A stretch of 64,000 nt of DNA from a virus. The notes beneath the pieces were generated by a model, which was not told where the DNA came from, did no database searches, and saw only the letters and a program-made list of their open reading frames with translations. Position 1 is the stretch's first letter. Each line of letters opens with the position of its first letter. This document shows, one piece after another, positions 5,495 through 36,622 of this stretch. Both the position numbers and the translations under genes were made by a program. The stretch covers positions 1-64,000 of IMG/VR virus record IMGVR_UViG_3300023118_000001. The stretch is one strand, 5' to 3'.

Positions 5495-5498
5495 TAGT

Positions 5499-5570: not shown

Positions 5571-5578
5571 CCGAACAT

Positions 5579-10903: not shown

Positions 10904-10913
10904 GGAGCCTGGC

Positions 10914-14088: not shown

Positions 14089-14097
14089 GGGCTAATG

Positions 14098-14126
14098 GAA
14101 GGGCCGCTTCGGCGGCCCTTCTTTCT
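14098..14126 (+). terminator. intrinsic terminator after the capsid gene
   Basis: GAAGGGCCGC-TTCG-GCGGCCCTTC-TTTCT. Confidence 0.88.
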
Positions 14127-14153
14127 ATCTAAAACTGCTGGAGAATCAAGATC

Positions 14154-14642: not shown

Positions 14643-14652
14643 GGAGCTTGGC

Positions 14653-16998: not shown

Positions 16999-17003
16999 CG
17001 GCT

Positions 17004-21900: not shown

Positions 21901-24126
21901 AAGGTGATCGATTCCGAGGAATCGCTGGGCAAGCTCGGCGCCACAACCAACGACTATTCCAACGAGGCTGACTGGCAAGCCAAGCGGATCGAGAAGTTGG
22001 TGGGCCTGACCAACGACCTGACCATTGCCCAAGGCAAACTGGCAGCCAGCCAGAGCCGTAGCGGTCTCGGGTTCAATAACCTGAACCTGGAGAAAACCGT
22101 TGGCCGACTGACCCAGGAAAAGGCCCTGGCAGAACGCCAAGTGCAGCTCGGCACCGGGCAGTTGCTCAAGGTGCAGGGGAACGTCCGACCGTTCTCTGAA
22201 ACCATCAAGGCTCTGGAGGCTGATCAGCAGGCCAAGGTAAACAAGAAGACCTACGAGGCCACAACCTCCAACGCCCAGCAGCTCCTTGATATCGAGAACA
22301 AGATCACGGAGGCCAGGGTTCAGCAGGCTGCTCTGATCACCAAGGACGACAACGCGCGCTTGGCTGGCAGCACGGATGACCGTCCAGGCCTGCAGTTGGC
22401 CGAAGCATCGGTCGAGCACATTGCGGACCTGGAAAACAAGCGCCTGGTCTTGCAGAAGAAAATGACCGAAGAGCAGCAGGCTCTTACGGAAGCTCGCGAT
22501 GCCGCTGCCGCCGTGGAACGCAGCGATACCGAGAATATGCTGGCGTACCAAAAAGAGGCTGCATCGCTCGCTGAGCGTATCAGGGCGGCTGAAAACCCTG
22601 GTGAAGGCAAGGCGATGGACGTCAAGACCGTCACCGACCTGTACAAAGACCAGGCCCGAGTGCTGGGGCAGATCAAGTCGCTGGAGACCAAGGGCTCTAA
22701 GGCAGACAAGAAGGCTGCCAAAGCTGATGACCGTCAGGCGTCCGAGGACCTGCGCACCTACACTGCGCTGGCAAAGAAATTCGACGAGGTCACCTACTCG
22801 GAACTGGAACTGGCCAAAGGCAAGGAGGCCATGCACCGCCTGCGCCAGGGCGAAGTCATCGACGGCAAGATGGTCACCATCACCGCCGAGCAGGAAGCCA
22901 AGGCCATCGGTGAGCTGAACCTGGCGCACTACAACGCGGTGAAGGCACTGGACCTGAACCGTGTTGCGCTGGAAAAAGTGAAGGCCACCTACAACACCAG
23001 CCCGTTCCTGCAGGCTGCCCAGGATCTGGCGGTGCTGAACCGCAGCCTTGAGGCCGGCACCCTCAGCCTGGAAGAGTACAAGCGCATCACCGACGAGATG
23101 CAGCGCTCGCAGAAGGAGGGGATCAAATCCTCGCTCCCACAGGCAAACCTGCAGGTTGGGGAGGCATCGTCCTCGCCGTTCACCGACTGGGTGTCGACGG
23201 AGATCGAGCGCGCCAACGGCTTGAAGGATTACCAGAAAGCCCAGGACGCGCACACCTACGACACAGCCTCGGCAAACGCCGGCCTGGACGACGGGTTCAA
23301 CCGTCAGCTGGAAGAGCTGAACGCGCGCAACCTGCTTCAGCAAGGCGCTGAAGAGGAACACAACCGCAAGCTGCTGGAGATCAACAAGAAGTACGCAGCC
23401 GATAAAGAGGCGCTGATCAAAACCTCTGGTGATGCCCAGGCGGTGATCACGGCTGAGCAGGCCAAATACGCTGAGGCTATGGGGACCATGGCCCTGATGG
23501 CTGCCATGGGCTCCGTGTCCAACGTGCTGGGGATGTTTGCCAGTGCAGCGGACGGCGCCTCCAACGCGCAGAAGCTGGCGTTCGTGGCACAGAAAGCGAT
23601 CTCCGTTGCACAGATCATCATGTACACCGAGGTGGCTGCGGCTCAGGCGATGATGATGTCAGGTAACCCTATGGTGTTGGGCCTGCCGATGGCGACGTTC
23701 ATCCGCGCCACGGGCTACGCCAACGCCGCGCTTGTAGGTGCCATGGCGATCGGTCAGCTGGCTGGTAGTGGTGGCGGATCTTCTGGCGGCAGTGGTGGCG
23801 GCACGCAAATGTACGACACCGGCGGCTACATCCCGTATAACCGGACAGGTATCGTCGGCGAGTACGGTCCAGAGCTGGTATCTGGCCCGGCCCACGTCAC
23901 CAGTCGTGGTAACAGCGCGTCGAAGCTGGGCGGTGGCGACGGTGCCATGCAGGTTACCCTGGCACCGGTGATCCAGATCACGGTGGAAGGCGGCGGTGGC
24001 GGCTCGGAAGCTGACCAGAACAAACAGGCCAAACAGATCGCAGAGGCCTCGCGCGCGTCGGTGATGTCGGTACTGACCGAGCAGATGCGCCCTAACGGCG
24101 TCGTCTACAAATTCGTCAAGGGATAG
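18937..24126 (+). CDS. tape measure protein
   Basis: 1729 aa, Ala-rich; TP901-type core (TTVFTASEV..LGMAG..NSNADIEQL..GIKGSRSGSALR); C-terminal GIVGEYGPELV. Confidence 0.95.
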   Translation: MAQFEVDFSESLSQLAQFQLRLTGAASALDELEKRGGKATSASKKLLVDMTKQYNDLEEALVKAGADAETLGNKMKFVRDNAVRLMSGMADANLKATVQAQAYNGELAELGRLLNDTNSKNTYSAWQAKTLQLTSKLTAENGYLRAAIAATDTEVAKSNLNLKTSLGHKQNMATADQRLRHTGDNLVLTLAQMSTEQGKSNVMTQAYIASRKSQITEEFRLDSQLRQLQKTLAGLTGGQQEEITKIQQLIAARKSEITESAREDAQLVKLRATLVSLAGGRQEEIAKVNAQISARKKAIAESISEVKVVDEMTAAIKREEAALVRLQAQAQLASTSHGQRVTQLKTQIAEQDRHNKLLGMSTSSLLGFGNAQAKVNLSQELGSQSAAMLRAGLTGLHASVGMYTSATVLAATATYGVSAAFRDTIVTGAEFYATMARTKAVMSTGGDGDTWLTNAAQSSKALEMQVRALGQTTVFTASEVGDGLQQLGMAGLSANEALVALKPSLQLANLANVSMARAADISTNVLMTFGMEAKQLQSVVDLMATAVNNSNADIEQLANSLSYAGPAAKTAGFSIQQTTAAIETMANSGIKGSRSGSALRRMFTSLLNPTKKGSEVIQKYGLDILDAEGNTRSLSNIINQMSKAFKDLPGPERLAAITNLVGVYASSAVTGLIDNTSKYNEFDKQNQNVAGAGDRMEKIISDNLKFDWKEMLSSLEEVQLQAFSQMDMRLRESVAGVSKYILEMMEPYKEGTDITGLDRLMVQAQTTAEAFARVVAGIVAYKFASGNVFAAFSSDAKGASERLTLVSSRLQSTSASYQIMGMATSVARTNTEMLNATLGRSVGVLGTMTAATASAAAGAAKLAAGLGMVMRALGWVGLVYGIGSAIWEVFSTKTDDEVMKHRAEVDQVKSSYDKLKQSIEETGLARQRAALKEQIKSDQLGSVNLADKIKSTSQTITNGRSVGVAEKDLQPLIDRLAGLQALVSTYDKKVIDSEESLGKLGATTNDYSNEADWQAKRIEKLVGLTNDLTIAQGKLAASQSRSGLGFNNLNLEKTVGRLTQEKALAERQVQLGTGQLLKVQGNVRPFSETIKALEADQQAKVNKKTYEATTSNAQQLLDIENKITEARVQQAALITKDDNARLAGSTDDRPGLQLAEASVEHIADLENKRLVLQKKMTEEQQALTEARDAAAAVERSDTENMLAYQKEAASLAERIRAAENPGEGKAMDVKTVTDLYKDQARVLGQIKSLETKGSKADKKAAKADDRQASEDLRTYTALAKKFDEVTYSELELAKGKEAMHRLRQGEVIDGKMVTITAEQEAKAIGELNLAHYNAVKALDLNRVALEKVKATYNTSPFLQAAQDLAVLNRSLEAGTLSLEEYKRITDEMQRSQKEGIKSSLPQANLQVGEASSSPFTDWVSTEIERANGLKDYQKAQDAHTYDTASANAGLDDGFNRQLEELNARNLLQQGAEEEHNRKLLEINKKYAADKEALIKTSGDAQAVITAEQAKYAEAMGTMALMAAMGSVSNVLGMFASAADGASNAQKLAFVAQKAISVAQIIMYTEVAAAQAMMMSGNPMVLGLPMATFIRATGYANAALVGAMAIGQLAGSGGGSSGGSGGGTQMYDTGGYIPYNRTGIVGEYGPELVSGPAHVTSRGNSASKLGGGDGAMQVTLAPVIQITVEGGGGGSEADQNKQAKQIAEASRASVMSVLTEQMRPNGVVYKFVKG

Positions 24127-25985: not shown

Positions 25986-26578
25986 AAACACTGATGCTCT
26001 ATGGCAGCCTGAAAGAAAAATTCCCTGGCGAGTTCAAGATGGACGTCGCCACACCAGGTGAAGCGATCCGCGCGATGTGCATTCAGTTGCCAGGCTTCGA
26101 GGCTGAGATCAAGGCCGGCAACTGGCGCGTCGTGCGCGGCTCCCTGGAAGGCAACGACGAGGTCAGCGAGGAAGGCCTGCAGATGACGCTGGGTAACCAG
26201 AACGAGCTGCACCTGATCCCGGTCATCGAGGGCGCCAACAGTGGCGCGGGCATGATCATCGTCGGCATCGTGATGATCGTGGCTGCCTTCTTCACCGGTG
26301 GTACGTCGATCGCAGCGTGGGGCGCCATGTCGACCATGCTGGCCGGCGCCGGCCTGGGCATGGTGGTCGGCGGTATCATCGCCAGTACCACCAAGATCCC
26401 CGGCGCAGGAGCGAGCGCCAGCGGCAACGAGAGAGAGGCTGACAAAGCCTCGTTCCTGTTCGACGGCCCAACCAACCAATCGACCCAGGGCGTGGCTGTG
26501 CCGCGTGGCTACGGGCGCATGATGATCGGCAGCATCGTGATCAGCGCCGGTCTCTACGCGGAGCCGATGGCCGTATGA
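25982..26578 (+). CDS. tail tip protein (gpI-like, ubiquitin-like fold)
   Basis: LYGSL, EAIRA, PVIEGA, hydrophobic segment, QGVAVPRGYG..IGS..ISAG. Confidence 0.92.
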   Translation: MKTLMLYGSLKEKFPGEFKMDVATPGEAIRAMCIQLPGFEAEIKAGNWRVVRGSLEGNDEVSEEGLQMTLGNQNELHLIPVIEGANSGAGMIIVGIVMIVAAFFTGGTSIAAWGAMSTMLAGAGLGMVVGGIIASTTKIPGAGASASGNEREADKASFLFDGPTNQSTQGVAVPRGYGRMMIGSIVISAGLYAEPMAV

Positions 26579-29500
26579 CTATCGATCAGGGTAAACAGAT
26601 CCGCGCCGCGGGCAATCGCCATCCGCTGACCATTGAAGGCGAGTGGAAGGTGCACCCGCTGACATCCGCCATTGAGGGTGCCAAGGGCGCCTCCAAACCG
26701 CCTGCCCAGTACATCCCGGTGGAAGCCCCGCAGTCGCTGCGAAGCAAGGCGCGCGGGCGCATCCTCGACCTGCTGGCGCACGGCCCAATCGTGGGGCTGG
26801 TCAACGGGCTGCAGTCGGTATTCCTGGACAGCACGCCGCTGCAGAACCCTGACGGCACGTTCAACTTCAACGGCATCACCGTCCAGACCCGCGAGGGTTA
26901 CCCTGACCAGGCGTACATCCCCGGCTTCACCGCCGTGGAAAACACCATCGACATCTCGGCCGAGGTGAAATTCGCCACGCCGCTGGTGCGGTCGGTGACC
27001 AACAACGACGCCAACGCGGTGATCGTGACCCTGGCTGTACAGGGGCTGAGTGAGCAGAAAGCCAACGGCGATATGGCCGGTTACCAGGTTGGCTTTTACA
27101 TCGACGTGAAAAACTCCAGCGGTGCCTGGACGGTCACGGCGGGTGACACCATCGTCGGCAAAACCACCACCGCCTACCAACGCTCGGTGCGGGTGCCGCT
27201 CAATGGCGTTGGCCCGTTCGATATCCGTGTGCGCCGCGCGCAGCCGGAGTCCAGCTCGGCCAAGATCCAGGACGATCTGTTTTGGGCCATGATGACCGAG
27301 GTCATCGACGCTCGGCTGTCCTATCCGGACAGCGCTCTGGTGGCGCTGGACGCCGACTCGGAACTGTTCGGCTCCAAGATGCCGGCCCGCTCCTACGACG
27401 TGAAGCTCAGCATCATCCGCATCCCGAGCAACTACGACCCGATCAACCGCACCTACAGCGGGTTTTGGGACGGGCAGTTCAAGATGGCGTGGTCGGACAA
27501 CCCGGCCTGGTGCTTCTATGACCTGTCGACCCACCCGGTCATCGGCGCCAACAACCAGTCCGTGGACAAATGGTCGCTGTACCGCATCGCGCAGTATTGC
27601 GACGAAATGGTGCCCAACGGCTACGGCGGCTGGGAGCCACGGTTCACCTGCAACACGCTGTTCGCCAGCCGTGAAGAAGCCATCGTTGTCCTGAACACCC
27701 TGGCCAGTGTTTTCCGTGGCATGGTCTACTGGGGTTCGGACTCGGTCATGGCCGTGGCCGACATGCCAGGCGATGCGCTGAAGCTGGTCACCCCAGCCAA
27801 CGTCACCTCGGACGGGTTCGAGTACGTCGGCACCTCACTGCGCGAGCGTCACTCCGTAGCCGTGGTGATGTGGAACGACCCGAACGATGAATACAAGCAG
27901 GTCCCGGAGCTGTACGAGGACCCTGAAAGCATCCAGTTGTTCGGTTGGAGAGAGACCCAGGTCACCGCAGCGTGCTGCACCAGCCGAGGCCAGGCACGGC
28001 GTCTGGCCAAGTGGATTCTGTACTCGGAACGGATGGAGACGGAGATCGTTTCCTACACCGCGACAGCTGACCACGCTGACCTGCGCCCAGGCGACTACAT
28101 CAAGATCTCCGACCCGGACCGGGCCGGCGCGCGGTATGGCGGCCGGACACTCGATGGCACAGCCAAGGTCATCACCCTGGACAAGGCACCGAAGCCTGGC
28201 GAAGTGGTCGGGACCTGGTATCTGAACTGCGTCATGCCAAGCGGCGTGATCCAGACCCGCGAGGTGCAGGGTTTCAACGGCGACGTGTGCACCCTGAAGC
28301 AGGCGTTCCCGGAAGTGCCGATCAAGGGCGCCGTGTGGGTCTTGTCCAGCGCCTCGCTGGTGACGCCGATGTACCGGGTGACCTCGGTGGTCGAGCAGGA
28401 TGACGGGCTGACCTATCAGATCTCGGCGACCGAGCACAACCCGAACAAGTACAACTTCGTCGAGTTCGACCTGCAGCTGCCCGATACACCGGACAGCACC
28501 ATCCCGTCTGGCCCGCTGGCCGGCCCTACGCACATCACCGCGTCGTCGTTCAAGTACGTTGCCGGCGGCACTGAGCACCAGGGTCTGACCGTGAGCTGGA
28601 GAGGCGTGGACGACGTCCGCTGCAACGGTTACATCCTCGAGGCGCGCGACCCGAACGACGTCACCTTCCGCACCATCTACTCCGGCGCCGGCCTGAGCGT
28701 GGACGAGAAGGACATCGTCGACGGCGAGTGGATATTCCGCATCAAGGCCACGACCTCCACCGGACGGACCTCGGAGTGGGTGCAACTGACCGTCAACATC
28801 GCAGGCCTGCTGCTGCCCGCGCCGCCCGACAGCATCCAGGTCGACGTCACCACGTTCGAGATCTCGCTGCGCCCGCGCAGCATCTACCCGGGTGCGATGT
28901 ATGAGTTCTGGCGCAGTGATGTGCCGCTGACCATGAACATGGTGGAGTCGAACGCCAGGCGTATCGCCATCGGCACCGACCTGGTGGACGTGGGCCTGAA
29001 GCCGAAAACCACCTACTACTACTACGTGCGAGGCACCAACATCTACGGCGTCTCCCAGTTCGTTGGCGCGCAGGGCACCACCCTGTACAACTTCGAGGAC
29101 ATCCTGGCTGCGCTGGACGAGGAGATTCGCCGACCAGGTGGGCTGTTCGACGAGATGCTGCAGTCGGCCGCAGCCAACGTCGAGGGCGTGAAGAACGCGC
29201 TGGACGCGCTGAAGACCGACATCCGCATGCAGAAGATGCTGGAAACCATCCGGGATCTGTCGACCAAGGCGCAACTGGAAGGCACCGCAGCGCGCAACAT
29301 GGTCGAGGAGATCACCCGCCTGACCGAAGACGAAGCGCTGGTGGCGCGGATCACCACGCTGCAGGCTCAGGTCGACGACGACATCACAGCGTCCCTCGAG
29401 GAGATGCAGTTCGCCATGGCGGCGAACAACGAAGCGATCGCTGGCCAGATCCTGACGATCAAGACGCAGATCAACGACGACATCCTGGCTGCCATGCTGG

Positions 29501-30036
29501 TCGAGCAGACTGCTCGGGTCGACGGTGACGGCGCGCTGTCGCAGCGGATTGAAACCCTGTCGGCGTCGACCGAGGACGACATCGCCACGGTCAAGCAAGA
29601 GATCACCGCGCAGGCCAACTACACCGACGGCGCCGTCGCGCGCGCGGTCACCACCGCCACGGTCAACGGCAAGTCGGCTGTGTTCGGTATCCAGGTGGCG
29701 GACGGTGTTGCGGAGATCGGTGCGATCGCTGACCGGTTCTACGTCTACAACCCAGTCGGCGGCAGCTACACGCTGGCGTTCGCGGTAGTTGACGGGCGCA
29801 CGGTAATCCAGGACGCTCTGATCCGCGAAGCCTCCATCACCATGGCCAAGATCAGCCAGGCGCTGCAGTCCGACAACTACAAGCCGAACGAAATTGGCTG
29901 GCGTCTGACCAAGGCGGGGGTCTTCGAGATGAACGGCAACACACCAGGTGAGGGCAGCCTGGTGCAAACCAACCAGACCATCACCGTGACCGACGGCGCG
30001 GGCACACCGCGGGTCAAGCTAGGAAGGCTGAATTGA
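26575..30036 (+). CDS. central tail fibre/host specificity protein (gpJ-like)
   Basis: GPIVGL, WSDNPAW, YCDEMV, EPRFTCN, CTSRGQARR, FN3-like and coiled-coil regions, ADRF..F.VVDG C-terminus. Confidence 0.95.
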   Translation: MTIDQGKQIRAAGNRHPLTIEGEWKVHPLTSAIEGAKGASKPPAQYIPVEAPQSLRSKARGRILDLLAHGPIVGLVNGLQSVFLDSTPLQNPDGTFNFNGITVQTREGYPDQAYIPGFTAVENTIDISAEVKFATPLVRSVTNNDANAVIVTLAVQGLSEQKANGDMAGYQVGFYIDVKNSSGAWTVTAGDTIVGKTTTAYQRSVRVPLNGVGPFDIRVRRAQPESSSAKIQDDLFWAMMTEVIDARLSYPDSALVALDADSELFGSKMPARSYDVKLSIIRIPSNYDPINRTYSGFWDGQFKMAWSDNPAWCFYDLSTHPVIGANNQSVDKWSLYRIAQYCDEMVPNGYGGWEPRFTCNTLFASREEAIVVLNTLASVFRGMVYWGSDSVMAVADMPGDALKLVTPANVTSDGFEYVGTSLRERHSVAVVMWNDPNDEYKQVPELYEDPESIQLFGWRETQVTAACCTSRGQARRLAKWILYSERMETEIVSYTATADHADLRPGDYIKISDPDRAGARYGGRTLDGTAKVITLDKAPKPGEVVGTWYLNCVMPSGVIQTREVQGFNGDVCTLKQAFPEVPIKGAVWVLSSASLVTPMYRVTSVVEQDDGLTYQISATEHNPNKYNFVEFDLQLPDTPDSTIPSGPLAGPTHITASSFKYVAGGTEHQGLTVSWRGVDDVRCNGYILEARDPNDVTFRTIYSGAGLSVDEKDIVDGEWIFRIKATTSTGRTSEWVQLTVNIAGLLLPAPPDSIQVDVTTFEISLRPRSIYPGAMYEFWRSDVPLTMNMVESNARRIAIGTDLVDVGLKPKTTYYYYVRGTNIYGVSQFVGAQGTTLYNFEDILAALDEEIRRPGGLFDEMLQSAAANVEGVKNALDALKTDIRMQKMLETIRDLSTKAQLEGTAARNMVEEITRLTEDEALVARITTLQAQVDDDITASLEEMQFAMAANNEAIAGQILTIKTQINDDILAAMLVEQTARVDGDGALSQRIETLSASTEDDIATVKQEITAQANYTDGAVARAVTTATVNGKSAVFGIQVADGVAEIGAIADRFYVYNPVGGSYTLAFAVVDGRTVIQDALIREASITMAKISQALQSDNYKPNEIGWRLTKAGVFEMNGNTPGEGSLVQTNQTITVTDGAGTPRVKLGRLN

Positions 30037-30398
30037 GCAACTGGGGACTGGAAATCAGGAACGGGCAAGGCTTCACAAGCCTTGACCCGGACACCTTCAC
30101 CGTGAAGCTGATCGAATCGGTGTGGGTGGGCTGGACCACCATCGACCAAAGTACCGTGATCGACATCCCCATCGAGACCACCTCGGTGGGTGGGGTGTTC
30201 GCTGTGATCACGATCTACAAGATGATGACAGCGGTGCTGAACCCTGACATGCAGATTTACTTCCAGTCCAACGCGCAGCACCCCCAGTGCCTTCCCGTCG
30301 TCGAGGTTTACCCGGGCATGGTCCGAGTGCGGGGTCAGCCAGTGCCAGGCTCCCGCGCTACCGGTATGATCGTGATCAACCTAATGAAATACCTCTAA
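30033..30398 (+). CDS. small tail-tip-associated protein
   Basis: Coupled to gpJ; WGLEIRNGQG..LD N-terminus typical of post-J genes. Confidence 0.65.
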   Translation: MSNWGLEIRNGQGFTSLDPDTFTVKLIESVWVGWTTIDQSTVIDIPIETTSVGGVFAVITIYKMMTAVLNPDMQIYFQSNAQHPQCLPVVEVYPGMVRVRGQPVPGSRATGMIVINLMKYL

Positions 30399-30406: not shown

Positions 30407-31237
30407 ATGTCATACGGATTCTCGGTGCTGGGGAACAGCGGTCAGCTGGTGATCGACGAAGACTCGATGATCATGACCCAGGCATTCCGTGGCGACATCA
30501 TCGTCAGCCCTAACGGGCTGCTCGGGCCTCAGTACGCCTACGGTTACTGCCACGTCACCTACCCTCAGGTGGTCGCCACCGAGTACCCGCCGTTTGTGTT
30601 CGCTGTGCCGACGCCTGGCGTGGTGCCGTGTGGCCTGGGCACGTTCCTGCATCGCGGCGTGGAAGGGGCATGGACCGGGTTCACGGTGCTGGTGACCAAA
30701 CACATCTTCGCCCAAGACGGCTCAGCGATGTACGCAGGGTTCAACACTGGTTGGCAGTACCGGGTCGGCAGCTTCGGGCTGCCAGGTGACAACGGCTACG
30801 CCGACTACGGCCTGCGCATCATGAATGAGTGGAGCGACATCACTTACGACAGCGCCTGGCCCATCATCAAGTTCCGCGGGCTGATGTCGGCCTGGGTCCT
30901 GCAGGAGTTCACTCGCGGGTACGCGCTGAACAACTACTGGGGCGCTGCAGACGTGTCCGGCGACGAAGACTACGTTCTGGCCAAGGGCACGCATGCCTGG
31001 GGCTACCCTGACCTCACCCACGGGTTCATGCTCTCTGGCATGGGATCGGTGGCCACCACCGTCGACCGTGGATCTTGGGAGGCTCCGGTGAACGCGGTCG
31101 TCACCGTGGGCTTCCCCGACGGTAACCGAGGCAACCTATGGGCGGTTGCTTTCTTCGGCGCTGCACAACACCCTAGCGGTGATCTCAGCGCAATGCGAAA
31201 CTGGAACCTCCTGACGGCCGACTTCTCCGGCACGTAA
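30407..31237 (+). CDS. tail-tip-associated protein
   Basis: Internal duplication: YGFSVLGNSGQLVID and YGLRIMNEWSDITYDS. Confidence 0.7.
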   Translation: MSYGFSVLGNSGQLVIDEDSMIMTQAFRGDIIVSPNGLLGPQYAYGYCHVTYPQVVATEYPPFVFAVPTPGVVPCGLGTFLHRGVEGAWTGFTVLVTKHIFAQDGSAMYAGFNTGWQYRVGSFGLPGDNGYADYGLRIMNEWSDITYDSAWPIIKFRGLMSAWVLQEFTRGYALNNYWGAADVSGDEDYVLAKGTHAWGYPDLTHGFMLSGMGSVATTVDRGSWEAPVNAVVTVGFPDGNRGNLWAVAFFGAAQHPSGDLSAMRNWNLLTADFSGT

Positions 31238-31259
31238 GCCAACCACAAGGATGCAGGTA

Positions 31260-31967
31260 ATGGCAGCAGCAGACAATTTCCCAGCGTTTAACGCAGCGGT
31301 GGCTGAGCTTACGCTCAAGGTCCAGGCGCTGATCACCGACGTCAGCGGTGCCCAGGCATCCCTCGGCCCTGAGGTGGCAGCAGCCCTGATCAAACTGGAA
31401 GCCGCGACCACGGCAGCCAACACCGCCGTGGCTGCCGCGACCACCGCGACCCAGGCCGCCGCCGCGCTGACCGCCCTCAAGGCTGAGTTCGACGCCGCCA
31501 TCATCACGGTCGAGGGATTGACCACCGACGTGGGCACGCTGAACGAGCAGGTCGGCGCAGCCATGGCGCTGATGACCACCACGCAGCTTGCGCTGCAGGC
31601 CGCGCTGGATGAAATCGAAGGCATCTCCGGCAACCTCGCCCAGGTGAAAAAGCTCAGCCTGGCAGCGGTCAGCCCGGCTGGCCACGCCTCGGCGGTGATC
31701 AACACCGCGCACAACGTCGGCAACGGCGGGCTGATGCTGCTCGGCGTCTACTGCACCACGTCCACCCCGCTGCAGATGTACGACGTGCTGATCAAGGTCG
31801 GCTCGACGATCCTGTACGAGGCGGCCGGCGTGCTGGGTGAACTGAAGGATACCTTCTCGCACTTCGCCATCGCCAGCGGCGTGATGGAAGTCACCCTGAC
31901 CAACCAGGGCAACGCAGCCGCCGTGCTGACCCCGACCGTCGTCTTCACGGAGCTGGCCCTCGTATGA
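31260..31967 (+). CDS. coiled-coil fibre stalk/adaptor
   Basis: Ala/Thr-rich heptads then a beta domain; coupled to the next gene. Confidence 0.65.
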   Translation: MAAADNFPAFNAAVAELTLKVQALITDVSGAQASLGPEVAAALIKLEAATTAANTAVAAATTATQAAAALTALKAEFDAAIITVEGLTTDVGTLNEQVGAAMALMTTTQLALQAALDEIEGISGNLAQVKKLSLAAVSPAGHASAVINTAHNVGNGGLMLLGVYCTTSTPLQMYDVLIKVGSTILYEAAGVLGELKDTFSHFAIASGVMEVTLTNQGNAAAVLTPTVVFTELALV

Positions 31968-34900
31968 GCATCAACACCAACCAAAGCTCCAGCTACATCC
32001 ACCTGGCCACCGACATCGCCATCGAAGGGCAGAACTTCGACGAGGTTCGCGCGGAGTGGCGAGACATCCAGAACTTCAACCTGCAGAACACCTTCAACTA
32101 CGCCGGCTCCAATCAGACCGGCTCGTGGATTGTGGACGGTGGCGACGGCGCGGCACCGGCAGAGACCCGTGAGAAGCGGGCGTTCTGCACCACCGGCAAG
32201 GCCAGCATCACGTTCACCGGCACCAGTGTCGCGGTGCGTGCATCGCTGAACCCCGGCTGGGGCGTGGCGTACATCCTGATCGATGGGCAGCTGCCCTCCA
32301 CGATCCCGGGCCTGGCCAAGTTCAAGGACATCGTCAGCTCCAACGCCGATGACTTCAGCGCCTGGGGCAACGAGTTCCGCGACCAGGTGGTGGCCGACGG
32401 TCTGGCGCCTGGCACGCACACGCTGGACATCCTCTGCTACACCAACAGCCCGACGGAGTTCTTCATCTTCTCCGGGATCAAGGTCTACTCCTACGCCAAC
32501 AAAGACATCGACATCAAGGCGTTCTCGCTCAAGACCAGCGAGCGAGTGCAGCCCACCAAACTCAAGCTGTGGACCCAAGGCGTCTCGGCTGAGAACGTGG
32601 TACTGAATTTTGACGCCAAACTTCTGCACCCGACCACACAGACCTCGCTGGGTAACGTGCTGATCGGCGCGTTGAACGCCAACACAGCCTACGAGCTGTC
32701 GTTCGCCCCCAACCTGCTGGGCACGGAGCCATCGGGGATCATCACCCTGCCGATTGTGATGACAGCCAACGTGGGTGACCCGGACGGCACCAACGTCGGC
32801 GAGGTGGCGCTGGATCTGACCCACACCTCGGACCAGATCACCTACGTCAGCACCAACTGGTGGGAAGACCCAGCCACGCCGACCCTGGCGAGCATGCACG
32901 CGACTGCATCCAAGCAGGCCTGGCTGTCCTTCAACCACACCGGTGACCTGCTCAAGCTGCTGGGCTACGTGGACTTCGGCGCGGCCACGGTGCGCGTGCT
33001 GAAGGACGCTGTCGAGCGCAACCTGACCTCTTGGAACGTCGGCCAGACCGTGATCAACATCGCCTCCACTGTCGGCATCACTGTCGGCATGATGGCGATC
33101 GGTCGCGGCATTCCTGACAACGTCACAGTGACCGCGGTAACGCCGACCAGTGTGACATTGTCGGCGGCGGTGACCATCAAGGTCACCAACGGCGCCATCG
33201 CCTTCGGCACCGTGCACGGCGTCCTCGACATGAACGAGAACAACGAGGCGCTGCAGGGCACCATGCAGATGCGTCAGCTGGCTGGCTTTGGCGCAACCTA
33301 CAAAGGTCGCCTGGTGTTGCAGCCGACGGCGAACAAGACCTTCGGCGTGAACATGATCTACACCCGCCGGACCTACACCTACACCATCGTCACCGAGACG
33401 CTTAACGCCAAGTTCAGCATCTCCCAGGTCAACCACCTGCCGATCTCCGGCGTCAAGCTGGACGGCGGCAAGATCGCCTACATCGACCCGAACAAGAACG
33501 TCTACACGCCGCTGGCCAACCCGCCAATCGACAACCGCAACATCAGCGAGGTCAGCATCGAGTACCGGTTCCCGACGTTCCTGTGCTGCTACACAGCCGG
33601 CAACAAGGAGCTGTTCAAGCAGTACGACGTGGTGATCACCGACCCGATGGCGCTGAGCCGCAAGGAAGTGAAAGAGCTGCAGGACCTCGGCATCCAGGTG
33701 ATCAACTACGTGTCCTTCGGCGAAGAGGACGGCGTGCTGTCGAACATTTGGGACAACACCTCGGAACAGGGTCCGCACACTGGCGACGGCACAGGGCCTG
33801 GCGGTTACGCCGGCTACTACCTGAAGGGTGGCTACGACATGGGCGAGTTCTCGGAGTGCACCAACGACCGCCAGCGCTACGAAGGCGTGAAGGCGTGTGC
33901 CTTGAGCAACCCGAAGTATTACCAGGGCGTGGGGCGCTGCTCGAAGGCCTGTGGCAACGATTCGCGCACCGGGTACAGCGAGTACGAGACCGGGGGCAGC
34001 TGCGCCGCGGGCTTCACCAAGGACAACAACTGGATTCGTGACGCCTCCACAGCGTGCTCGAACAACGCCTGCCCGCAGTTCTCGCCGATGCACAGCGGCT
34101 GCACCCAGTACGTCCAGGCCGAAGGCGTGTGGGGTCAGGATTTCTCAATCCTCGATCACAACGCGCCGGACGAGAACGGGATTTGGGACTCCTTCTACGT
34201 CGACGCGGTGAAGCGCGGGCCTGGCAGCTGGTTCAATAGGCTGCAGGATTACTACCTGCCGCTGGTGTTCAACGAGCCGGTTCCCTACGACGAAGTCCTG
34301 ACCGTGGCTCAGCACCCGCTGACCGATGGCTCGCTGATCTACGGCATCCTGATGACCCACGCGCCGATCGATGATCATGAACCCTTCAGCGTGCAGCATG
34401 TGGCCAGCGGCAAGTTCCTGATCCCAGGCCAGCACTTCTCCTACGACCAGAAGATCGGCACCATCATCCTGGCGTTCAACAGCGGTGTGCTGGAGCCGGA
34501 AGCGCCGCCTAACCCTGCCGTCGGCGCGCAGTACCGCGTGAAGTATTCCAAGCGCGGCCTGGGCAGCGACGGGGTGTTCATGGACACCGTCGACACCGTG
34601 GACATCTACCCGCGCGAGGACTACCTGCAGGGGGCGGCTGACCTGATCAACGACCTCAAGCTGCTGTGGCCTGACCGCGCGTTCTGCTCCAACCGTGGGT
34701 TCACCATCTACGACCGCATGATCCACAGCTGCACCTGGATCATGACCGAGTCGGTGTTCAGCCATTACCACTTCGGCGAGGACTACTACAGCGAGGTCGA
34801 CGAGGCTGCGGCTGTGTGGAACGAAGAAGTGGCGGCGATGATTCAGGAGCTTCGCAAGAAGCACACCTTCGACGTGGTCTGCTTGAACTACGCGCCTAAC

Positions 34901-35077
34901 GGCCCTGAGGGCGATGCGCTTCGCGCGCGCGTGTACGAGAAGTGTCTGGAGCTGGGCTGGCTGCCCTGGCTGTCGACTATCCTGCTGAACGATCCGCTGC
35001 CCAACCGCCCATTCAATACCGGCAAGGGCTACATCCGGACCAACAACTGGAGGAAGATCAATGTCCGCAATCTATGA
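31964..35077 (+). CDS. multidomain tail-module protein with a PelA/GH166 (GH114-like) glycoside hydrolase
   Basis: CBM-like jelly roll (ASITFTGTSV..GVAYILIDG..GLAPGTHTL); YDVVITDP, YVSFGE, DGVFMDTVDT, NRGF, MTESVF. Confidence 0.8.
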   Translation: MSINTNQSSSYIHLATDIAIEGQNFDEVRAEWRDIQNFNLQNTFNYAGSNQTGSWIVDGGDGAAPAETREKRAFCTTGKASITFTGTSVAVRASLNPGWGVAYILIDGQLPSTIPGLAKFKDIVSSNADDFSAWGNEFRDQVVADGLAPGTHTLDILCYTNSPTEFFIFSGIKVYSYANKDIDIKAFSLKTSERVQPTKLKLWTQGVSAENVVLNFDAKLLHPTTQTSLGNVLIGALNANTAYELSFAPNLLGTEPSGIITLPIVMTANVGDPDGTNVGEVALDLTHTSDQITYVSTNWWEDPATPTLASMHATASKQAWLSFNHTGDLLKLLGYVDFGAATVRVLKDAVERNLTSWNVGQTVINIASTVGITVGMMAIGRGIPDNVTVTAVTPTSVTLSAAVTIKVTNGAIAFGTVHGVLDMNENNEALQGTMQMRQLAGFGATYKGRLVLQPTANKTFGVNMIYTRRTYTYTIVTETLNAKFSISQVNHLPISGVKLDGGKIAYIDPNKNVYTPLANPPIDNRNISEVSIEYRFPTFLCCYTAGNKELFKQYDVVITDPMALSRKEVKELQDLGIQVINYVSFGEEDGVLSNIWDNTSEQGPHTGDGTGPGGYAGYYLKGGYDMGEFSECTNDRQRYEGVKACALSNPKYYQGVGRCSKACGNDSRTGYSEYETGGSCAAGFTKDNNWIRDASTACSNNACPQFSPMHSGCTQYVQAEGVWGQDFSILDHNAPDENGIWDSFYVDAVKRGPGSWFNRLQDYYLPLVFNEPVPYDEVLTVAQHPLTDGSLIYGILMTHAPIDDHEPFSVQHVASGKFLIPGQHFSYDQKIGTIILAFNSGVLEPEAPPNPAVGAQYRVKYSKRGLGSDGVFMDTVDTVDIYPREDYLQGAADLINDLKLLWPDRAFCSNRGFTIYDRMIHSCTWIMTESVFSHYHFGEDYYSEVDEAAAVWNEEVAAMIQELRKKHTFDVVCLNYAPNGPEGDALRARVYEKCLELGWLPWLSTILLNDPLPNRPFNTGKGYIRTNNWRKINVRNL

Positions 35078-35351
35078 TTTCAGCAACCCGTTCCTGCGGA
35101 ACATGCCGATGGTGGCGATCGTGCGCGCGACCAGCAAGAAGAATGGCGAGGTGACCACCACGCCGGACACCCAGTGCCGACGGATCTTTTTCAGGGTCAG
35201 TAATAACCGGGTGTTCCCGGCGCCGGCCGGGCAGCAGGAGATCATGCACGAGGGTAAGGCGATGGATGCGTTCTACGGCTTCGATAACCTCCGGGAGTTC
35301 AACCCGGAGGAGATCAACGCCTCACACGACGCCAACCCTAAGCCTCGGTAG
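35061..35351 (+). CDS. hypothetical partner/chaperone of the hydrolase protein
   Basis: SD GGAGG; overlaps the end of the upstream gene. Confidence 0.65.
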   Translation: MSAIYDFSNPFLRNMPMVAIVRATSKKNGEVTTTPDTQCRRIFFRVSNNRVFPAPAGQQEIMHEGKAMDAFYGFDNLREFNPEEINASHDANPKPR

Positions 35352-35919: not shown

Positions 35920-36315
35920 ATGATTACTGATCCAGCTTCGAATACAGGGTGGCTGACGGTCTGCTTCGTCTACGCATGGTCAGTAATGGAGCAGCTGCAC
36001 CCTGGATCGGCCATGGGAGCTTCCTTCGGCTGCGTATTTTTCGTCCTCCTGCCAGACCCCGTAGTTACCTCCTTCGTTTCAAAACTTCTTCGCAAAATCG
36101 GACTCACAGTTGTGTCCTGGGGGTTCGGCTACGCTGTGGGGATTGCATTCTCGAACAGCAGCTCGATGCTGGCAGCGATTATTGGAGCTGCGGTCGCCTC
36201 TGGTGTTCTAGGCGCCATCAACCTGATGGTCAAGAACGACGGCGATTTGCCGCAGTGGATGTCTTCACTGATTAACGCAATCCTACGGTTAAAGCGAGGC
36301 GGCGATGAACAATGA
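35920..36315 (+). CDS. putative holin
   Basis: Multiple hydrophobic segments; first gene of the lysis cassette. Confidence 0.7.
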   Translation: MITDPASNTGWLTVCFVYAWSVMEQLHPGSAMGASFGCVFFVLLPDPVVTSFVSKLLRKIGLTVVSWGFGYAVGIAFSNSSSMLAAIIGAAVASGVLGAINLMVKNDGDLPQWMSSLINAILRLKRGGDEQ

Positions 36316-36622
36316 TCCCACCTACGGGGAAGTGCTACTGAGCATTCGTATTGTGTTTCACATGATCACGTTCTTTTCGGTCATCTGTTACAGCAGCGAA
36401 TCACGCACACGATGGTTCTCCAGTATGTTGGCGTTCTGCCTGGCGGGTTCCTCGCTGGCACTGGCCACACAGTCCTACACCAAGTTCTCCACCATGGCGC
36501 CCAACTCAGAAGTCTGGCTGGTGATCTTCGTCGGAGTGGTCACGATCCTTGTTGTCGCTAACGGCGGCAACGTCGCAAAAGTCCTACACAACACTCGAAA
36601 GAGGCTACCCTATGGACGCTAA
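36305..36622 (+). CDS. putative second holin/antiholin
   Basis: Three hydrophobic segments, GGNVAKV, basic C-terminus. Confidence 0.7.
   Translation: MNNDPTYGEVLLSIRIVFHMITFFSVICYSSESRTRWFSSMLAFCLAGSSLALATQSYTKFSTMAPNSEVWLVIFVGVVTILVVANGGNVAKVLHNTRKRLPYGR

What the first reader, a model, noticed from the sequence alone, without database searches (positions are those of the whole stretch)
31964..35077. Tail-module protein carrying a PelA-like (GH166/GH114) alpha-galactosaminidase: a candidate Pel-targeting phage depolymerase
Seen: from ~33578 the protein has, in order, YDVVITDP, YVSFGE, NGIWDSFYVD..W, DGVFMDTVDT (Asp 34583), NRGF (34691) and MTES (Glu 34748). One or two CBM-like jelly rolls precede this region, and the gene is translationally coupled to a coiled-coil stalk gene just after gpJ. 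Known: this motif order matches the hydrolase barrel of Pseudomonas PelA (FLDTLD, NRGF, AVES, with catalytic Asp/Glu), which cleaves the alpha-1,4-GalNAc/GalN biofilm polymer Pel. Typical phage depolymerases are beta-helices, and I know of no characterised virion-borne Pel hydrolase. Inference: the phage binds or tunnels through a Pel-like matrix, possibly using it as a primary receptor.
Basis: partly seen in the sequence, partly recalled or inferred. Interest (0 to 1): 0.85.

Follow-up and report, generated by a model that had tools for sequence, protein, structure and literature searches.

The report
Phage tail enzyme resembling PelA hydrolase
A Pseudomonas-type phage carries among its tail genes a large protein whose end closely copies the bacterial enzyme that cuts the biofilm sugar Pel, so the phage probably digests a slime layer of its host with it, although the sugar it cuts has not been tested.

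Summary
Gene 31964-35077 (+) encodes a 1037-aa protein. It has CBM-like beta-sandwiches at the N-terminus and a C-terminal (beta/alpha)8 barrel that is a homologue of the PelA hydrolase domain. Support: PDB profile search E 2.6e-10; AlphaFold model pLDDT 92.9; VIA Z 26.8, rmsd 2.5 A over 248 of 253 PelA residues. GH191 scores Z 25.6 and GH114 Z 19.3. Asp874 and Glu929 align with PelA D160 and E218 and are invariant in 31 homologues. Two insertions split the barrel, one with 8 invariant cysteines, which is why Pfam misses it.

The host phage is a complete 87.4-kb relative of Pseudomonas phage PMBT3. PMBT3 carries a GH18 protein in the same slot, so this is an exchangeable enzyme cassette.

New here: a 96-aa gene (35061-35351) accompanies the enzyme in 31 of 31 phage loci. 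In 6 of them it is fused in frame between the barrel and a baseplate-hub domain. It is predicted to bind the non-catalytic face of the barrel (ipSAE 0.83, best control 0.00). This argues for a baseplate-borne enzyme.

Pel as the substrate stays inferred. All 3 prophage-carrying genomes found have PelG, but pel is reported as poorly conserved in environmental Pseudomonas. The scan had noted this stretch before, on this same genome only.

The parts
26575..30036 (+). gpJ-like central tail fibre (1153 aa). It marks the end of a lambda-like tail-tip module (TMP 18937-24126, then gpM-, gpL-, gpK- and gpI-like genes).
   Evidence: phrog_31 'central tail fiber J' E 1.9e-290 and neighbouring tail PHROGs. 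64.9% identical to the PMBT3 tail protein.
30033..30398 (+). 121-aa ORF of unknown function between gpJ and the cassette.
   Evidence: No Pfam or PHROG hit. 41.6% identical copy at the same place in relative L015.
30407..31237 (+). About 276-aa protein (P0003 read from Met41). It is the conserved frame of the slot, shared with PMBT3. It may be the anchor for the exchangeable cassette (inference).
   Evidence: phrog_3370 E 2.5e-28 starting at residue 41. 45.5% identical to the PMBT3 289-aa protein at the same place.
31251..31967 (+). P0002, 238 aa. Ala-rich, probably helical N-terminal half plus a beta-rich C-terminal domain of about 100 aa. Its stop overlaps the enzyme's start (ATGA).
   Evidence: The C-terminal domain is 29% identical (E 3e-9) to SCYZ1 orf53 'particle protein', which also directly precedes the SCYZ1 enzyme homologue. 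Among loci L004-L041 it was found only in L015.
31964..35077 (+). P0001, 1037 aa: the PelA-like enzyme (whole gene).
   Evidence: phrog_37372, unknown function, E 1.1e-218; 113 related cluster representatives, itself included.
31997..33367 (+). N-terminal beta-sandwich array (aa 12-468). It holds a CE2-N-like jelly roll (12-180), a middle beta-sandwich (about 181-280) and a CBM36/6-like jelly roll (281-468). The last carries an inserted 65-aa domain (348-415).
   Evidence: AF2 model pLDDT 92.0. VIA-align Z 12.8-13.4. Pfam CE2_N weak in P0001 (E 0.016) but matched by 15 of 47 family members. Residues E70, R72, G86, R92, G100, D107, G108 and H152 are invariant in 31 sequences.
33581..33730 (+). 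First part of the barrel: strands beta1 (VVIT) and beta2 (YVSFGEE).
   Evidence: AF2 DSSP. Aligns to PelA residues around its SVGEFDG motif.
33731..34189 (+). Insertion 1 (about aa 590-742), between beta2 and beta3. Mostly loops yet modelled with high confidence. Eight cysteines (C632, 645, 659, 663, 680, 698, 703, 713).
   Evidence: DSSP and block pLDDT 88-96. All 8 Cys are invariant in 31 full-length homologues. The insertion is absent from a subclade (L038, L039).
34280..34552 (+). Insertion 2 (about aa 773-863): a small beta-sandwich between helix alpha3 and strand beta4.
   Evidence: AF2 DSSP strands 244-334 of P0116. PelA has no counterpart: query 601-837 is skipped in the alignment.
34553..35074 (+). 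Second part of the barrel (beta4-beta8) and a C-terminal tail. Catalytic Asp874 (codon 34583-34585) and Glu929 (codon 34748-34750).
   Evidence: Asp874 aligns with PelA D160 and Glu929 with PelA E218; the E218A entry 5tsy has Ala at that column. D160A E218A is the hydrolase-dead PelA. Both residues and NRGF are invariant.
35061..35351 (+). small96: a 96-aa partner gene. It starts inside the last codons of P0001, with GGAGGA 7 nt upstream of its ATG. Predicted adaptor that docks on the non-catalytic face of the barrel.
   Evidence: Family HMM found in 31 of 31 phage-type loci and 0 of 7 cellular loci, 6 of the 31 as in-frame fusions between barrel and hub. Predicted complex ipSAE 0.83, best control 0.00.
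35920..36622 (+). Two holin-like genes (35920-36315, 36305-36622). They mark the start of the lysis cassette and the downstream edge of the slot.
   Evidence: phrog_198 E 4.4e-6 and phrog_217 E 7.4e-10. 89% and 84% identical to the matching PMBT3 stretches.

Best explanation
P0001 is a tail-tip (baseplate-associated) polysaccharide hydrolase of a PMBT3-like Pseudomonas siphophage.

Shown: its C-terminal 500 aa form a (beta/alpha)8 barrel homologous to the PelA hydrolase domain and its clan. The Asp/Glu pair is intact. Two lineage-specific insertions split the barrel. CBM-like beta-sandwiches precede it.

Shown by comparison: it sits in an exchangeable slot between the conserved tail-tip genes and the lysis cassette. 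It always travels with a small partner protein (small96). In one clade that partner is the covalent link between the barrel and a baseplate-hub domain.

Inferred mechanism: small96 adds a strand to the linker and the N-terminal-end face of the barrel and ties the enzyme to the tail. This leaves the catalytic face free. The CBM-like domains hold the virion on a GalNAc/GalN-rich exopolysaccharide. The barrel then cuts alpha-1,4 galactosaminide bonds by the retaining Asp/Glu mechanism, so the particle moves through the matrix to the cell surface. The most likely substrate is Pel or a Pel-like polymer.
For: Homology and active site.
- phmmer against PDB: PelA 5tcb E 7e-4.
- Profile against PDB: PelA 2.6e-10 and 3.9e-10.
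- 17 of 47 family members match PF03537.
- 10 of 10 sampled distant relatives are PF03537 members above the cut-off.
- AF2 model: pLDDT 92.9, pTM 0.90.
- Foldseek: 5tcb E 1e-12, TM 0.79 by target.
- VIA-align: PelA Z 26.8 (rmsd 2.5, 248 of 253 aligned); GH191 Z 25.6; Ega3 Z 19.3.
- Asp874 and Glu929 align with PelA D160 and E218 and are invariant in 31 sequences.
- In 401 genomes of one order, the family profile hit 23 genomes besides the carrier itself. All 23 have PelG. In 20 the hit lies within about 12 kb of pelG on the same contig, so it is PelA.

Tail location.
- Lambda-like tail module upstream, holins downstream.
- PMBT3 (TerL 87.8%, gpJ 64.9% identical) keeps the flanking genes. It has a different helical-plus-beta protein and a 1018-aa GH18 protein in the slot.
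- Tail PHROGs lie next to the gene in 5 of 6 other loci tested.
- Eight cluster representatives carry baseplate-hub domains PF09931 and PF09356.
- L030 has the order tape measure, 203 aa, GH-hub fusion, 149 aa, tail protein.

Partner.
- small96 module in 31 of 31 phage-type loci. In 6 it lies in frame between barrel and hub.
- Predicted complex ipSAE 0.83 against a best control of 0.00. That mark was reached by 58 of 80 solved complexes and 2 of 110 mismatched pairs. The runs agree in at least 65% of contacts and the partner's pLDDT is at least 56.
- The interface is P0001 residues 488-537, 549-578, 903-906, 961-971 and 997-999. These are the N-terminal ends of the strands, away from Asp874 and Glu929.

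Substrate.
- PelA hydrolyses Pel. Env-GH191 showed good activity on isolated Pel.
- 3 of 3 bacterial genomes found to carry a prophage copy have PelG (G001, G002, G468). The base rates are 43 of 401 and 82 of 262. The chance product is about 0.01.
- Ralstonia, host of three isolated phages with homologues, is named among the taxa with full-length PelA homologues.
Against: - No virion proteomics was found for any homologue. The RsoM2USA study identified only 10 abundant bands and its homologue is not among them, which is uninformative.
- P0001 itself has no PF03537 match at E <= 1. The two members seen in detail score 17.0 and 21.2 bits, under the 27-bit cut-off.
- The likely host genus is Pseudomonas of the fluorescens group. 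[quoted passage not shown]
- The closest cellular sequence relatives (28-36% identity over beta4-beta7) lie in genomes where PelG was found in 0 of 5, all metagenome-assembled.
- Clan members differ in substrate. TmGH191 showed no activity on or binding to GAG, and FsGH114 showed none on Pel.
- The two insertions flank the active-site half of the barrel and could change specificity.
- The co-occurrence rests on 3 genomes, two of them from one family.
- The fold is not the trimeric beta-helix usual for tailspikes, and no trimerisation or known tail-attachment domain was recognised.
Confidence: 0.55

Rival explanations
1. The enzyme has the same architecture and tail location, but it cuts a different surface glycan. 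Candidates are a capsule, an O-antigen or another exopolysaccharide rich in amino sugars. One example is the GalNAc-containing EPS I of Ralstonia solanacearum, whose composition I recall from memory and saw in no call.
For: pel is reported as poorly conserved in environmental Pseudomonas. Nearest cellular sequence relatives lie in genomes without detectable PelG, 0 of 5. Substrate range varies within the clan. Two large insertions and two CBM-like modules are lineage-specific. The same slot in PMBT3 holds a GH18 enzyme, so the slot tracks host glycan diversity.
Against: The two nearest relatives with measured activity both cut Pel. 3 of 3 carrier genomes have PelG. In bacterial genomes the family profile picks out PelA specifically.
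Confidence: 0.25
2. The enzyme is soluble and not part of the virion. It is made late and released at lysis, to free progeny from the host's matrix or to loosen neighbouring biofilm.
For: The gene lies directly upstream of the holins. A TIM-barrel enzyme needs no oligomeric fibre. No virion proteomics is available. A virome study listed phage GH114 genes as auxiliary metabolic genes.
Against: In-frame fusion to baseplate-hub domains in one clade. In SCYZ1 the gene sits between head and tail genes, and in phiRSL1 it lies in a region of unnamed genes with a tail-collar-domain protein a few genes away; neither is next to lysis genes. Tail genes flank it in 5 of 6 loci tested. It is translationally coupled to a fibre-like upstream gene.
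Confidence: 0.1
3. It is a cell-wall (peptidoglycan) hydrolase that helps DNA injection. This follows the 'peptidoglycan hydrolase' label on the PMBT3 protein in the same slot.
For: The PMBT3 annotation. The peptidoglycan hydrolase Cwp19 shares the general fold, Z 14.6.
Against: Alpha-galactosaminidases score Z 24-27, far above Cwp19. No sequence-level match to any cell-wall hydrolase family was found. The PMBT3 label rests on a GH18 domain, which is not evidence for this protein.
Confidence: 0.05
4. It is a catalytically silent receptor-binding protein that only uses the barrel and CBM-like domains as a lectin.
For: No activity has been measured. The N-terminal jelly roll has its own invariant polar residues.
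Against: Asp874, Glu929, NRGF and the FMDTVD motif are invariant across 31 sequences that are down to 30% identical overall. That is the pattern of a working active site.
Confidence: 0.05

Closest known systems
PelA hydrolase domain (PelAh, CAZy GH166) of Pseudomonas aeruginosa, PDB 5tcb/5tsy; full-length PelA 9cgy
   Same: Same (beta/alpha)8 barrel: Z 26.8, rmsd 2.5 A, 248 of 253 residues aligned, 20% identity. It is the only natural family found by sequence in PDB that matches the enzyme part. The catalytic D160 and E218 equivalents and the NRGF motif are conserved.
   Different: PelA is a periplasmic, five-domain biosynthetic enzyme with a deacetylase, encoded in the pel operon. P0001 is encoded in a phage tail module and has no deacetylase. 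It has CBM-like domains in front, two insertions of about 150 and 90 aa inside the barrel, and a small obligate partner. It fails Pfam's PF03537 threshold.
GH191 alpha-galactosaminidases (Thermotoga maritima TM1410, PDB 2aam/9eux; Env-GH191, 9ep5)
   Same: Structurally tied with PelA: Z 25.6 and 24.3, within about 1-2.5 units. [quoted passage not shown]
   Different: No GH191 chain appeared in the sequence searches of PDB at E <= 1. GH191 enzymes are small stand-alone proteins without the insertions.
GH114 endo-alpha-1,4-polygalactosaminidases (Aspergillus Ega3, PDB 6oj1; Fusarium FsGH114, 9ep6)
   Same: Same clan and fold. The Pfam model PF03537 named after this family matches 17 of 47 members of the phage family.
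   Different: A clearly weaker structural match: Z 19.3 and 18.7. These are fungal secreted enzymes acting on galactosaminogalactan.
Classical phage tailspike and tail-fibre depolymerases (trimeric beta-helix enzymes)
   Same: Encoded in the tail module after the central fibre. Probably carried on the virion to cut a host surface polysaccharide. The module is exchanged between phages.
   Different: The catalytic domain is a TIM barrel, not a beta-helix. Attachment appears to run through a separate small adaptor, not an N-terminal anchor domain.
The 1018-aa GH18 protein of Pseudomonas phage PMBT3 (AUM59625.1), same genomic slot
   Same: Same position between a conserved 289-aa protein and the holins. 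It is also preceded by an Ala-rich helical protein with a small C-terminal domain.
   Different: No detectable sequence similarity to P0001, P0002 or small96. Its catalytic domain is GH18.
Psl-dependent Pseudomonas aeruginosa phages (PaStL1, PaStL2)
   Same: A precedent that phages use a biofilm matrix exopolysaccharide for adsorption and degrade it (passages read).
   Different: These concern Psl, not Pel. In the passages read, Pel was tested as a candidate receptor and the phages proved Psl-dependent.
Baseplate hub protein of RcGTA-like tails (Pfam PF09931 + PF09356; PDB 6tba chain 7A)
   Same: In 8 cluster representatives the enzyme and the small96 module are fused to these hub domains. The family profile therefore hits 6tba at E 5.1e-8.
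   Different: The window's phage has a lambda-type tip (gpL, gpK, gpI, gpJ) and no such fusion. How small96 reaches this tip is not known.

Membership tests
Pfam PF03537 (Glyco_hydro_114 model, which also covers PelA-type and TM1410-type barrels) | Score above the curated gathering cut-off (27 bits) | tested here: not met
   P0001 has no match at E <= 1. 17 of 47 relatives match at E <= 0.01, best 8.7e-6. The two seen in detail score 21.2 and 17.0 bits. The 235-aa interruption of the barrel explains the failure. Homology is shown by other means, so I file it at clan level, not as a Pfam-threshold member.
CAZy GH166 (PelA hydrolase domain) | (beta/alpha)8 barrel superposable on PelAh | tested here: met
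   VIA-align Z 26.8, rmsd 2.5 A, 248 of 253 residues. Foldseek E 1e-12.
CAZy GH166 (PelA hydrolase domain) | Catalytic Asp (PelA D160) and Glu (PelA E218) in place | tested here: met
   Asp874 and Glu929 align to them (numbering offset derived from the E218A entry 5tsy). Invariant in 31 sequences. The mutant pair is described in passages of 10.1101/2024.06.28.601253.
CAZy GH166 (PelA hydrolase domain) | Significant sequence similarity to PelA rather than to sister families | tested here: inconclusive
   PelA is the only natural clan member hit in PDB (E 7e-4 single sequence, 2.6e-10 profile). However, in the 1.84-billion-protein library, shorter non-PelA PF03537 proteins (E 1e-25 to 1e-20) rank above PelA-length ones (5.6e-12). 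No tree with CAZy reference sequences was built.
CAZy GH166 (PelA hydrolase domain) | Endo-alpha-1,4-N-acetylgalactosaminidase activity on Pel | not testable with these tools
   Needs an enzyme assay.
CAZy GH191 | Fold and sequence similarity to TM1410 or Env-GH191 | tested here: inconclusive
   Fold Z 25.6 and 24.3. No GH191 chain at E <= 1 by sequence. P0001 has no NCBIfam match at all, so none to TIGR01370 (the MJ1477/TM1410 family model). That model matches 10 of 10 distant relatives only far below its cut-off, 26-50 bits against 181.
CAZy GH114 | Closest structural and sequence neighbours are GH114 enzymes | tested here: not met
   Ega3 Z 19.3 and FsGH114 Z 18.7. These are 6-8 units below PelA and GH191 and level with GH168 fucanases. 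It is the same clan but not the nearest family.
Virion-associated phage depolymerase | Encoded in the tail module and physically part of the tail | tested here: inconclusive
   The position is met. Physical presence is only inferred, from hub fusions and the predicted adaptor complex. No proteomics was found.
Virion-associated phage depolymerase | Trimeric beta-helix catalytic domain (the classical tailspike form) | tested here: not met
   The catalytic domain is a TIM barrel. Oligomeric state was not tested.

The most novel reading that the evidence does not exclude
A widespread, previously unnamed family of two-subunit tail enzymes: a PelA-type barrel plus a small strand-donating adaptor. 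In one clade the adaptor is the covalent bridge to the baseplate hub. With it, sipho-, podo-like and jumbo myophages of Pseudomonas and Ralstonia, and prophages in Andreprevotia and in genomes of the Selenomonas MAG's family, would recognise and cut Pel. Pel, a matrix polymer thought to shield cells, would then be the primary receptor. The enzyme would be a phage-side counterpart of the host's own Pel-processing hydrolase. Phage 'GH114 auxiliary metabolic genes' reported from viromes would be such tail enzymes.
Probability: 0.35. Interest if true: 0.8.

Novelty: new variant of a known kind. Interest (0 to 1): 0.62.

Why it matters
Pel is a major and phylogenetically widespread biofilm matrix polysaccharide, and recombinant PelAh is already studied as an anti-biofilm agent. 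In my four literature searches I found Psl-dependent phages. I found no phage shown to bind or cut Pel, and no characterised virion-borne enzyme of the GH114/166/191 clan. The only mention was a virome preprint listing GH114 genes as auxiliary metabolic genes.

If this family cuts Pel, three things follow:
- It gives a natural source of stable, CBM-equipped Pel hydrolases.
- It predicts Pel-dependent host range for cultured phages that can be tested at once (SCYZ1, RSP15, RsoM2USA, phiRSL1).
- It shows a new way of mounting a monomeric TIM-barrel enzyme on a tail, through a small adaptor that is a separate gene in some phages and a fused linker in others.

If the substrate is something else, the finding is still a new depolymerase architecture, and it gives a function to PHROG 37372, so far 'unknown function'.

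Tried and rejected
- Near-identical DNA in the phage collection: none.
- NCBIfam: no match for P0001, P0002, P0003, small96 or two homologues. TIGR01370 matched 10 of 10 distant relatives only far below its cut-off, so it does not separate families.
- Longer fused forms (over 1815 aa): none found, which the tool itself calls weak evidence.
- Shorter forms: 6 hits. Five lie on contigs of at most about 2.4 kb and are probably cut off. The sixth is a remnant fused to an AAA ATPase in Andreprevotia.
- The best profile hit in PDB was a designed TIM barrel (7mcd, E 9.9e-11). I rejected it as an artefact: four identical designed repeats each match only the 34 profile positions of the beta1-beta2 motif.
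- Two hits in the representative search are repeat-summed. One is a WD40 protein (P0205), rejected. The other is a protein with 17 'HYR-like 4-cysteine' repeats (P0161) that matches aa 662-702 of insertion 1 in 13 stretches. I kept it only as a lead.
- BFVD holds one clear structural relative only (1036 aa, 59% identity), probably the SCYZ1 protein; the name was not shown.
- The ESM Atlas gave nothing usable for small96: best feature score 0.78, TM under 0.5, and its own model has pLDDT 0.41.
- P0002 as a universal partner: rejected. Among loci L004-L041 it was found only in L015, plus the SCYZ1 C-terminal domain.
- Plain tblastn found small96 in only 16 of 38 loci. The family HMM replaced that count.
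- Host from sequencing runs: one full holder, a leaf-litter metagenome that may be the source.
- More carriers for the co-occurrence test: 1 of 401, 2 of 262 and 1 of 56 genomes. The test stays at n = 3.
- phiRSL1 virion proteomics: not found in the library. The only 'ORF189' hit concerned another phage.
I make no claim that their folds are new.
Table S3 of the PelA paper, Supplementary Data 4 of the rumen virome preprint and the virion mass-spectrometry tables may bear on host range and virion carriage.
- The minus-strand ORF 31748-34093 (781 aa) was not pursued. The plus-strand frame has homologues down to 28% identity. I read the minus-strand ORF as an open shadow frame in DNA of about 62% G+C.

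Full report
WHAT IS THERE. The window is the first 64 kb of an 87,406-bp virus record with direct terminal repeats, rated complete. Its large terminase is 87.8% identical to that of Pseudomonas phage PMBT3 (host P. grimontii) and its gpJ-like protein 64.9%. The terminase is 81.7% identical to that of phage Lana. The phage is therefore a PMBT3-type siphophage, most likely of a fluorescent Pseudomonas. The only run holding the whole gene is a leaf-litter metagenome, which may be its source.

The gene 31964-35077 (+) is a clean 1037-codon ORF. It follows a lambda-like tail-tip module: tape measure, gpM-, gpL-, gpK- and gpI-like genes, then gpJ at 26575-30036. Three smaller genes lie between gpJ and it. 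Two holin-like genes follow.

The upstream gene overlaps the enzyme's start as ATGA. It is not directly after gpJ: a 121-aa ORF and a protein of about 276 aa come first.

THE CATALYTIC DOMAIN. Pfam does not recognise the barrel in this protein, and PHROGs files the protein under phrog_37372, 'unknown function'. Nevertheless the best PDB match of the single sequence is the PelA hydrolase domain. The match to 5tcb has E 7e-4 and comes in two pieces, query 551-601 and 837-1008.

I collected 113 related cluster representatives, the query included. Five carry a precomputed PF03537 hit and eight carry baseplate-hub domains. A 47-sequence profile raises PelA to E 2.6e-10 (5tcb) and 3.9e-10 (9cgy). 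17 of the 47 members match PF03537 at E <= 0.01. In the 1.84-billion-protein library the domain has 309 relatives at E <= 1e-3 and 41 at E <= 1e-30. 10 of 10 sampled distant relatives are PF03537 members above the cut-off.

The AlphaFold model of residues 530-1037 is confident: pLDDT 92.9, pTM 0.90. Foldseek ranks PelAh first, with E 1e-12 and TM 0.79 by target. VIA-align gives these scores:
- PelAh: Z 26.8 (rmsd 2.5 A, 248 of 253 residues, 20% identity)
- GH191 (2aam, 9eux): Z 25.6
- full-length PelA 9cgy: Z 24.6
- Ega3 (GH114): Z 19.3
- GH168 fucanases: about Z 18
- Cwp19: Z 14.6
- PgaB: Z 13.5

From the alignments, the column that differs between 5tcb and its E218A variant 5tsy is the Glu of MTES (Glu929). 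With that numbering offset, the first Asp of PelA's FLDTLD is D160, and it aligns with Asp874 of FMDTVD. D160A E218A is the 'double hydrolase-inactivated' PelA (passages read). Asp874, Glu929, NRGF and the neighbouring residues are invariant in 31 full-length homologues that fall to 30% overall identity.

Clan-level homology with an intact active site is therefore shown. The CAZy family is not settled. Structure ties GH166 with GH191. PDB sequence searches see only PelA. In the large library, shorter non-PelA proteins rank above PelA-length ones.

WHY PFAM MISSES IT. Two insertions interrupt the barrel.
- Insertion 1 (about aa 590-742, between beta2 and beta3) is mostly loops but confidently modelled. 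Its eight cysteines are invariant. A subclade (L038, L039) lacks it.
- Insertion 2 (about aa 773-863, between alpha3 and beta4) is a small beta-sandwich.
Their folds and the state of the cysteines remain open.

THE N-TERMINAL HALF. The model (pLDDT 92.0, pTM 0.69) is all-beta. It contains:
- a CE2-N-like jelly roll at aa 12-180 (6hfz Z 12.8);
- a middle beta-sandwich;
- a CBM36/CBM6-like jelly roll at aa 281-468 (2dcj Z 13.4; CBM36 1w0n Z 12.8, 110 of 120 residues);
- inside that jelly roll, a 65-aa insert (348-415) that is 34% identical to a decoration protein of Arthrobacter phage Bridgette (Z 8.3).
The first jelly roll has eight invariant residues, including E70, R72, R92, D107 and H152. 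They could form a sugar-binding or docking site. This is inference.

AN EXCHANGEABLE SLOT. PMBT3 keeps gpJ, the 289-aa homologue of P0003 (45.5% identity) and the holins (84-89%). Between them it has an unrelated Ala-rich helical protein with a small C-terminal domain, and a 1018-aa protein with a GH18 domain. Two related phages thus carry different carbohydrate-active enzymes in one tail slot, each behind its own fibre-like protein. This is how receptor-specific modules behave.

The enzyme also occurs in unrelated phage types:
- SCYZ1 of P. fluorescens: 46.5% identity over the whole length, between head and tail genes, preceded by 'particle proteins'.
- The Ralstonia jumbo phages RSP15, RsoM2USA and phiRSL1: 35-39% identity.
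I also found 27 IMG/VR loci and prophage copies in Andreprevotia chitinilytica and a Selenomonas MAG. Of 10 neighbouring proteins in 6 further loci, 7 match tail PHROGs, covering 5 of the 6 loci.

THE SMALL PARTNER (new here). A 96-aa gene starts at 35061, inside the last codons of P0001 and behind a GGAGGA. Homologues follow the SCYZ1 and phiRSL1 genes.

I built an HMM of ten family members (alignment A4) and searched the six-frame segments of all fetched loci. The results:
- The module is in 31 of 31 phage-type loci and in 0 of 7 loci that hold only cellular-type barrels.
- In 23 loci it is an adjacent or overlapping ORF.
- In 2 loci it forms the C-terminal part of a 184-aa ORF about 1.1 kb downstream.
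- In 6 loci (L004, L028-L032) it lies in frame, directly after the barrel and before the hub domains PF09931 and PF09356.
Caveats: 9 loci were in the model and match by construction. At least four pairs of loci are the same or near-identical DNA. The six in-frame matches are weak (E 1.4e-6 to 9.7e-4) but all lie at the same place.

In L030 the gene order is tape measure, a 203-aa ORF, the 1309-aa fusion, a 149-aa ORF, then a large tail protein. I recall this layout from RcGTA-type tails, with the hub gene extended at its N-terminus.

The fusion is independent evidence that enzyme, small module and baseplate hub belong together. It agrees with the complex prediction for P0001 residues 176-1037 with small96. 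That prediction scored ipSAE 0.83, with a best control of 0.00. The mark was reached by 58 of 80 solved complexes and 2 of 110 mismatched pairs. The runs agree in at least 65% of contacts, and the partner's pLDDT is at least 56.

The conserved core of small96 (residues 9-45) pairs with the invariant RFPTF linker strand (526-537). It also touches residues 549-578, 903-906, 961-971 and 997-999, which are the N-terminal ends of the barrel strands, on the face opposite Asp874 and Glu929. Alone, small96 is predicted disordered (Atlas model pLDDT 0.41). I therefore read small96 as an adaptor or clamp that folds on the enzyme and links it to the tail. It is not an inhibitor. The model supports binding but does not show it.

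IS THE SUBSTRATE PEL?

For:
- PelA hydrolyses Pel. Env-GH191 showed good activity on isolated Pel (section 3 read).
- In a sample of 401 genomes of one order, the family profile hit 23 genomes apart from the carrier. All 23 have PelG, and 20 of the hits lie within about 12 kb of pelG on the same contig, in ORFs mostly 900-1000 aa long. The profile thus finds PelA itself.
- The three bacterial genomes found to carry a prophage copy (G001 Andreprevotia; G002 and G468 in the Selenomonas MAG's family) all have PelG. The base rates are 43 of 401 and 82 of 262. The chance product is about 0.01, but n = 3 and two genomes are from one family.
- Ralstonia is named among the taxa with full-length PelA homologues (passage).

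Against:
[quoted passage not shown] Some fluorescens-group strains do have it (passages and table legends).
- The closest cellular sequence relatives, in Anaerolineae, Scalindua and Myxococcota MAGs, lie in genomes where PelG was found in 0 of 5.
- TmGH191 did not act on GAG and FsGH114 did not act on Pel.
- The insertions may reshape the substrate groove.

I put a Pel or Pel-like alpha-1,4-GalNAc/GalN polymer at roughly even odds, and a tail-borne glycanase of some specificity at about 0.8.

A lead, not evidence: Vibrio phage VpR is reported as 87% identical to SCYZ1 over 87% of its length. It makes haloed plaques and disrupts biofilms outside its host range (passages). Whether VpR carries the homologue was not checked.

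WHAT IS KNOWN. Four full-text searches found two things. One is Psl-dependent phages that bind and degrade Psl. The other is a rumen-virome preprint that lists GH114 as the most frequent glycoside-hydrolase 'auxiliary metabolic gene', in 30 vOTUs. They found no phage shown to bind or cut Pel, and no characterised virion enzyme of this clan. The searches cover open-access papers and bioRxiv only. The RsoM2USA paper identified only ten abundant virion bands, and its homologue is not among them.

The family is in databases as 'hypothetical protein'. The functional reading and the partner are new, but the kind of thing, a phage tail depolymerase, is known.

VERDICT. This is a new variant of a known kind: a tail enzyme built on a PelA-type barrel with two insertions and an obligate small adaptor, sitting in an exchangeable slot. 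Interest 0.62.

Noticed in passing
L042 (Pseudomonas phage PMBT3, MG596799.1) 13885-17769: In the same slot PMBT3 has an Ala-rich 272-aa protein and a 1018-aa protein with a C-terminal GH18 domain (Pfam E 2.5e-7), annotated 'peptidoglycan hydrolase YvbX'. By position it is more likely a tail-borne glycanase exchanged against the PelA-like cassette.
   Followed up: partly
window 33005-33208 (P0001 aa 348-415): A 65-aa domain is inserted in the second jelly roll. It is 34% identical to a decoration protein of Arthrobacter phage Bridgette (PDB 8eci chain 1; Z 8.3, rmsd 1.7). The same region gives the weak phrog_5838 'virion structural protein' match.
   Followed up: no
window 33947-34069 (P0001 aa 662-702, insertion 1): This cysteine-bearing stretch matches, in 13 separate stretches, a 2798-aa protein (P0161). 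P0161 has 17 'HYR-like domain with 4 cysteines' repeats and a type IX secretion signal (E 1.3e-14, summed over repeats). This may point to a shared disulfide-stabilised motif, or it may be a repeat artefact.
   Followed up: partly
L007 (Andreprevotia chitinilytica NZ_JONM01000016.1) 9734-10997; G001:C16: This is a third, truncated copy of the enzyme gene: only the second half of the barrel, called as part of a 343-aa 'AAA family ATPase' (P0121), still followed by an intact small96 homologue. It lies about 16 kb from the genome's pelG on the same contig (G001:C16 93222-93911 against 75619-76977).
   Followed up: partly
The genome search control set: Of the 14 named control genomes only Thermotoga maritima has a PelG match above the cut-off. 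T. maritima also encodes the GH191 founder TM1410, which showed no activity on fungal GAG. A Pel-like polymer of its own could be TM1410's substrate.
   Followed up: no
family of G002 (262 genomes): 82 of 262 genomes have PelG, yet apart from the two prophage carriers none has any match to the barrel profile at E <= 1e-10. The pel systems of this family therefore seem to lack a PelA-type hydrolase domain, while their phages bring one.
   Followed up: no
window 5419-5654: Two phage-borne tRNA genes, tRNA-Gln (TTG) and tRNA-Met (CAT).
   Followed up: no
L022 8615-9166 and L024 8626-9177; L021 6849-7472: The small96 module also occurs as the C-terminal part of a 184-aa protein about 1.1 kb downstream of the enzyme gene (L022, L024). 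In L021 it is the N-terminal part of a 208-aa protein. The adaptor is thus itself modular.
   Followed up: partly
bioRxiv 10.1101/2023.03.20.532305 (passage); loci L028-L032 and L004: The rumen-virome 'GH114 auxiliary metabolic genes' (30 vOTUs) may be the hub-fused tail enzymes seen here in a Selenomonas MAG and in metagenome loci. That would change their reading from metabolic to structural. It was not checked against that paper's sequences, because supplements were closed.
   Followed up: no
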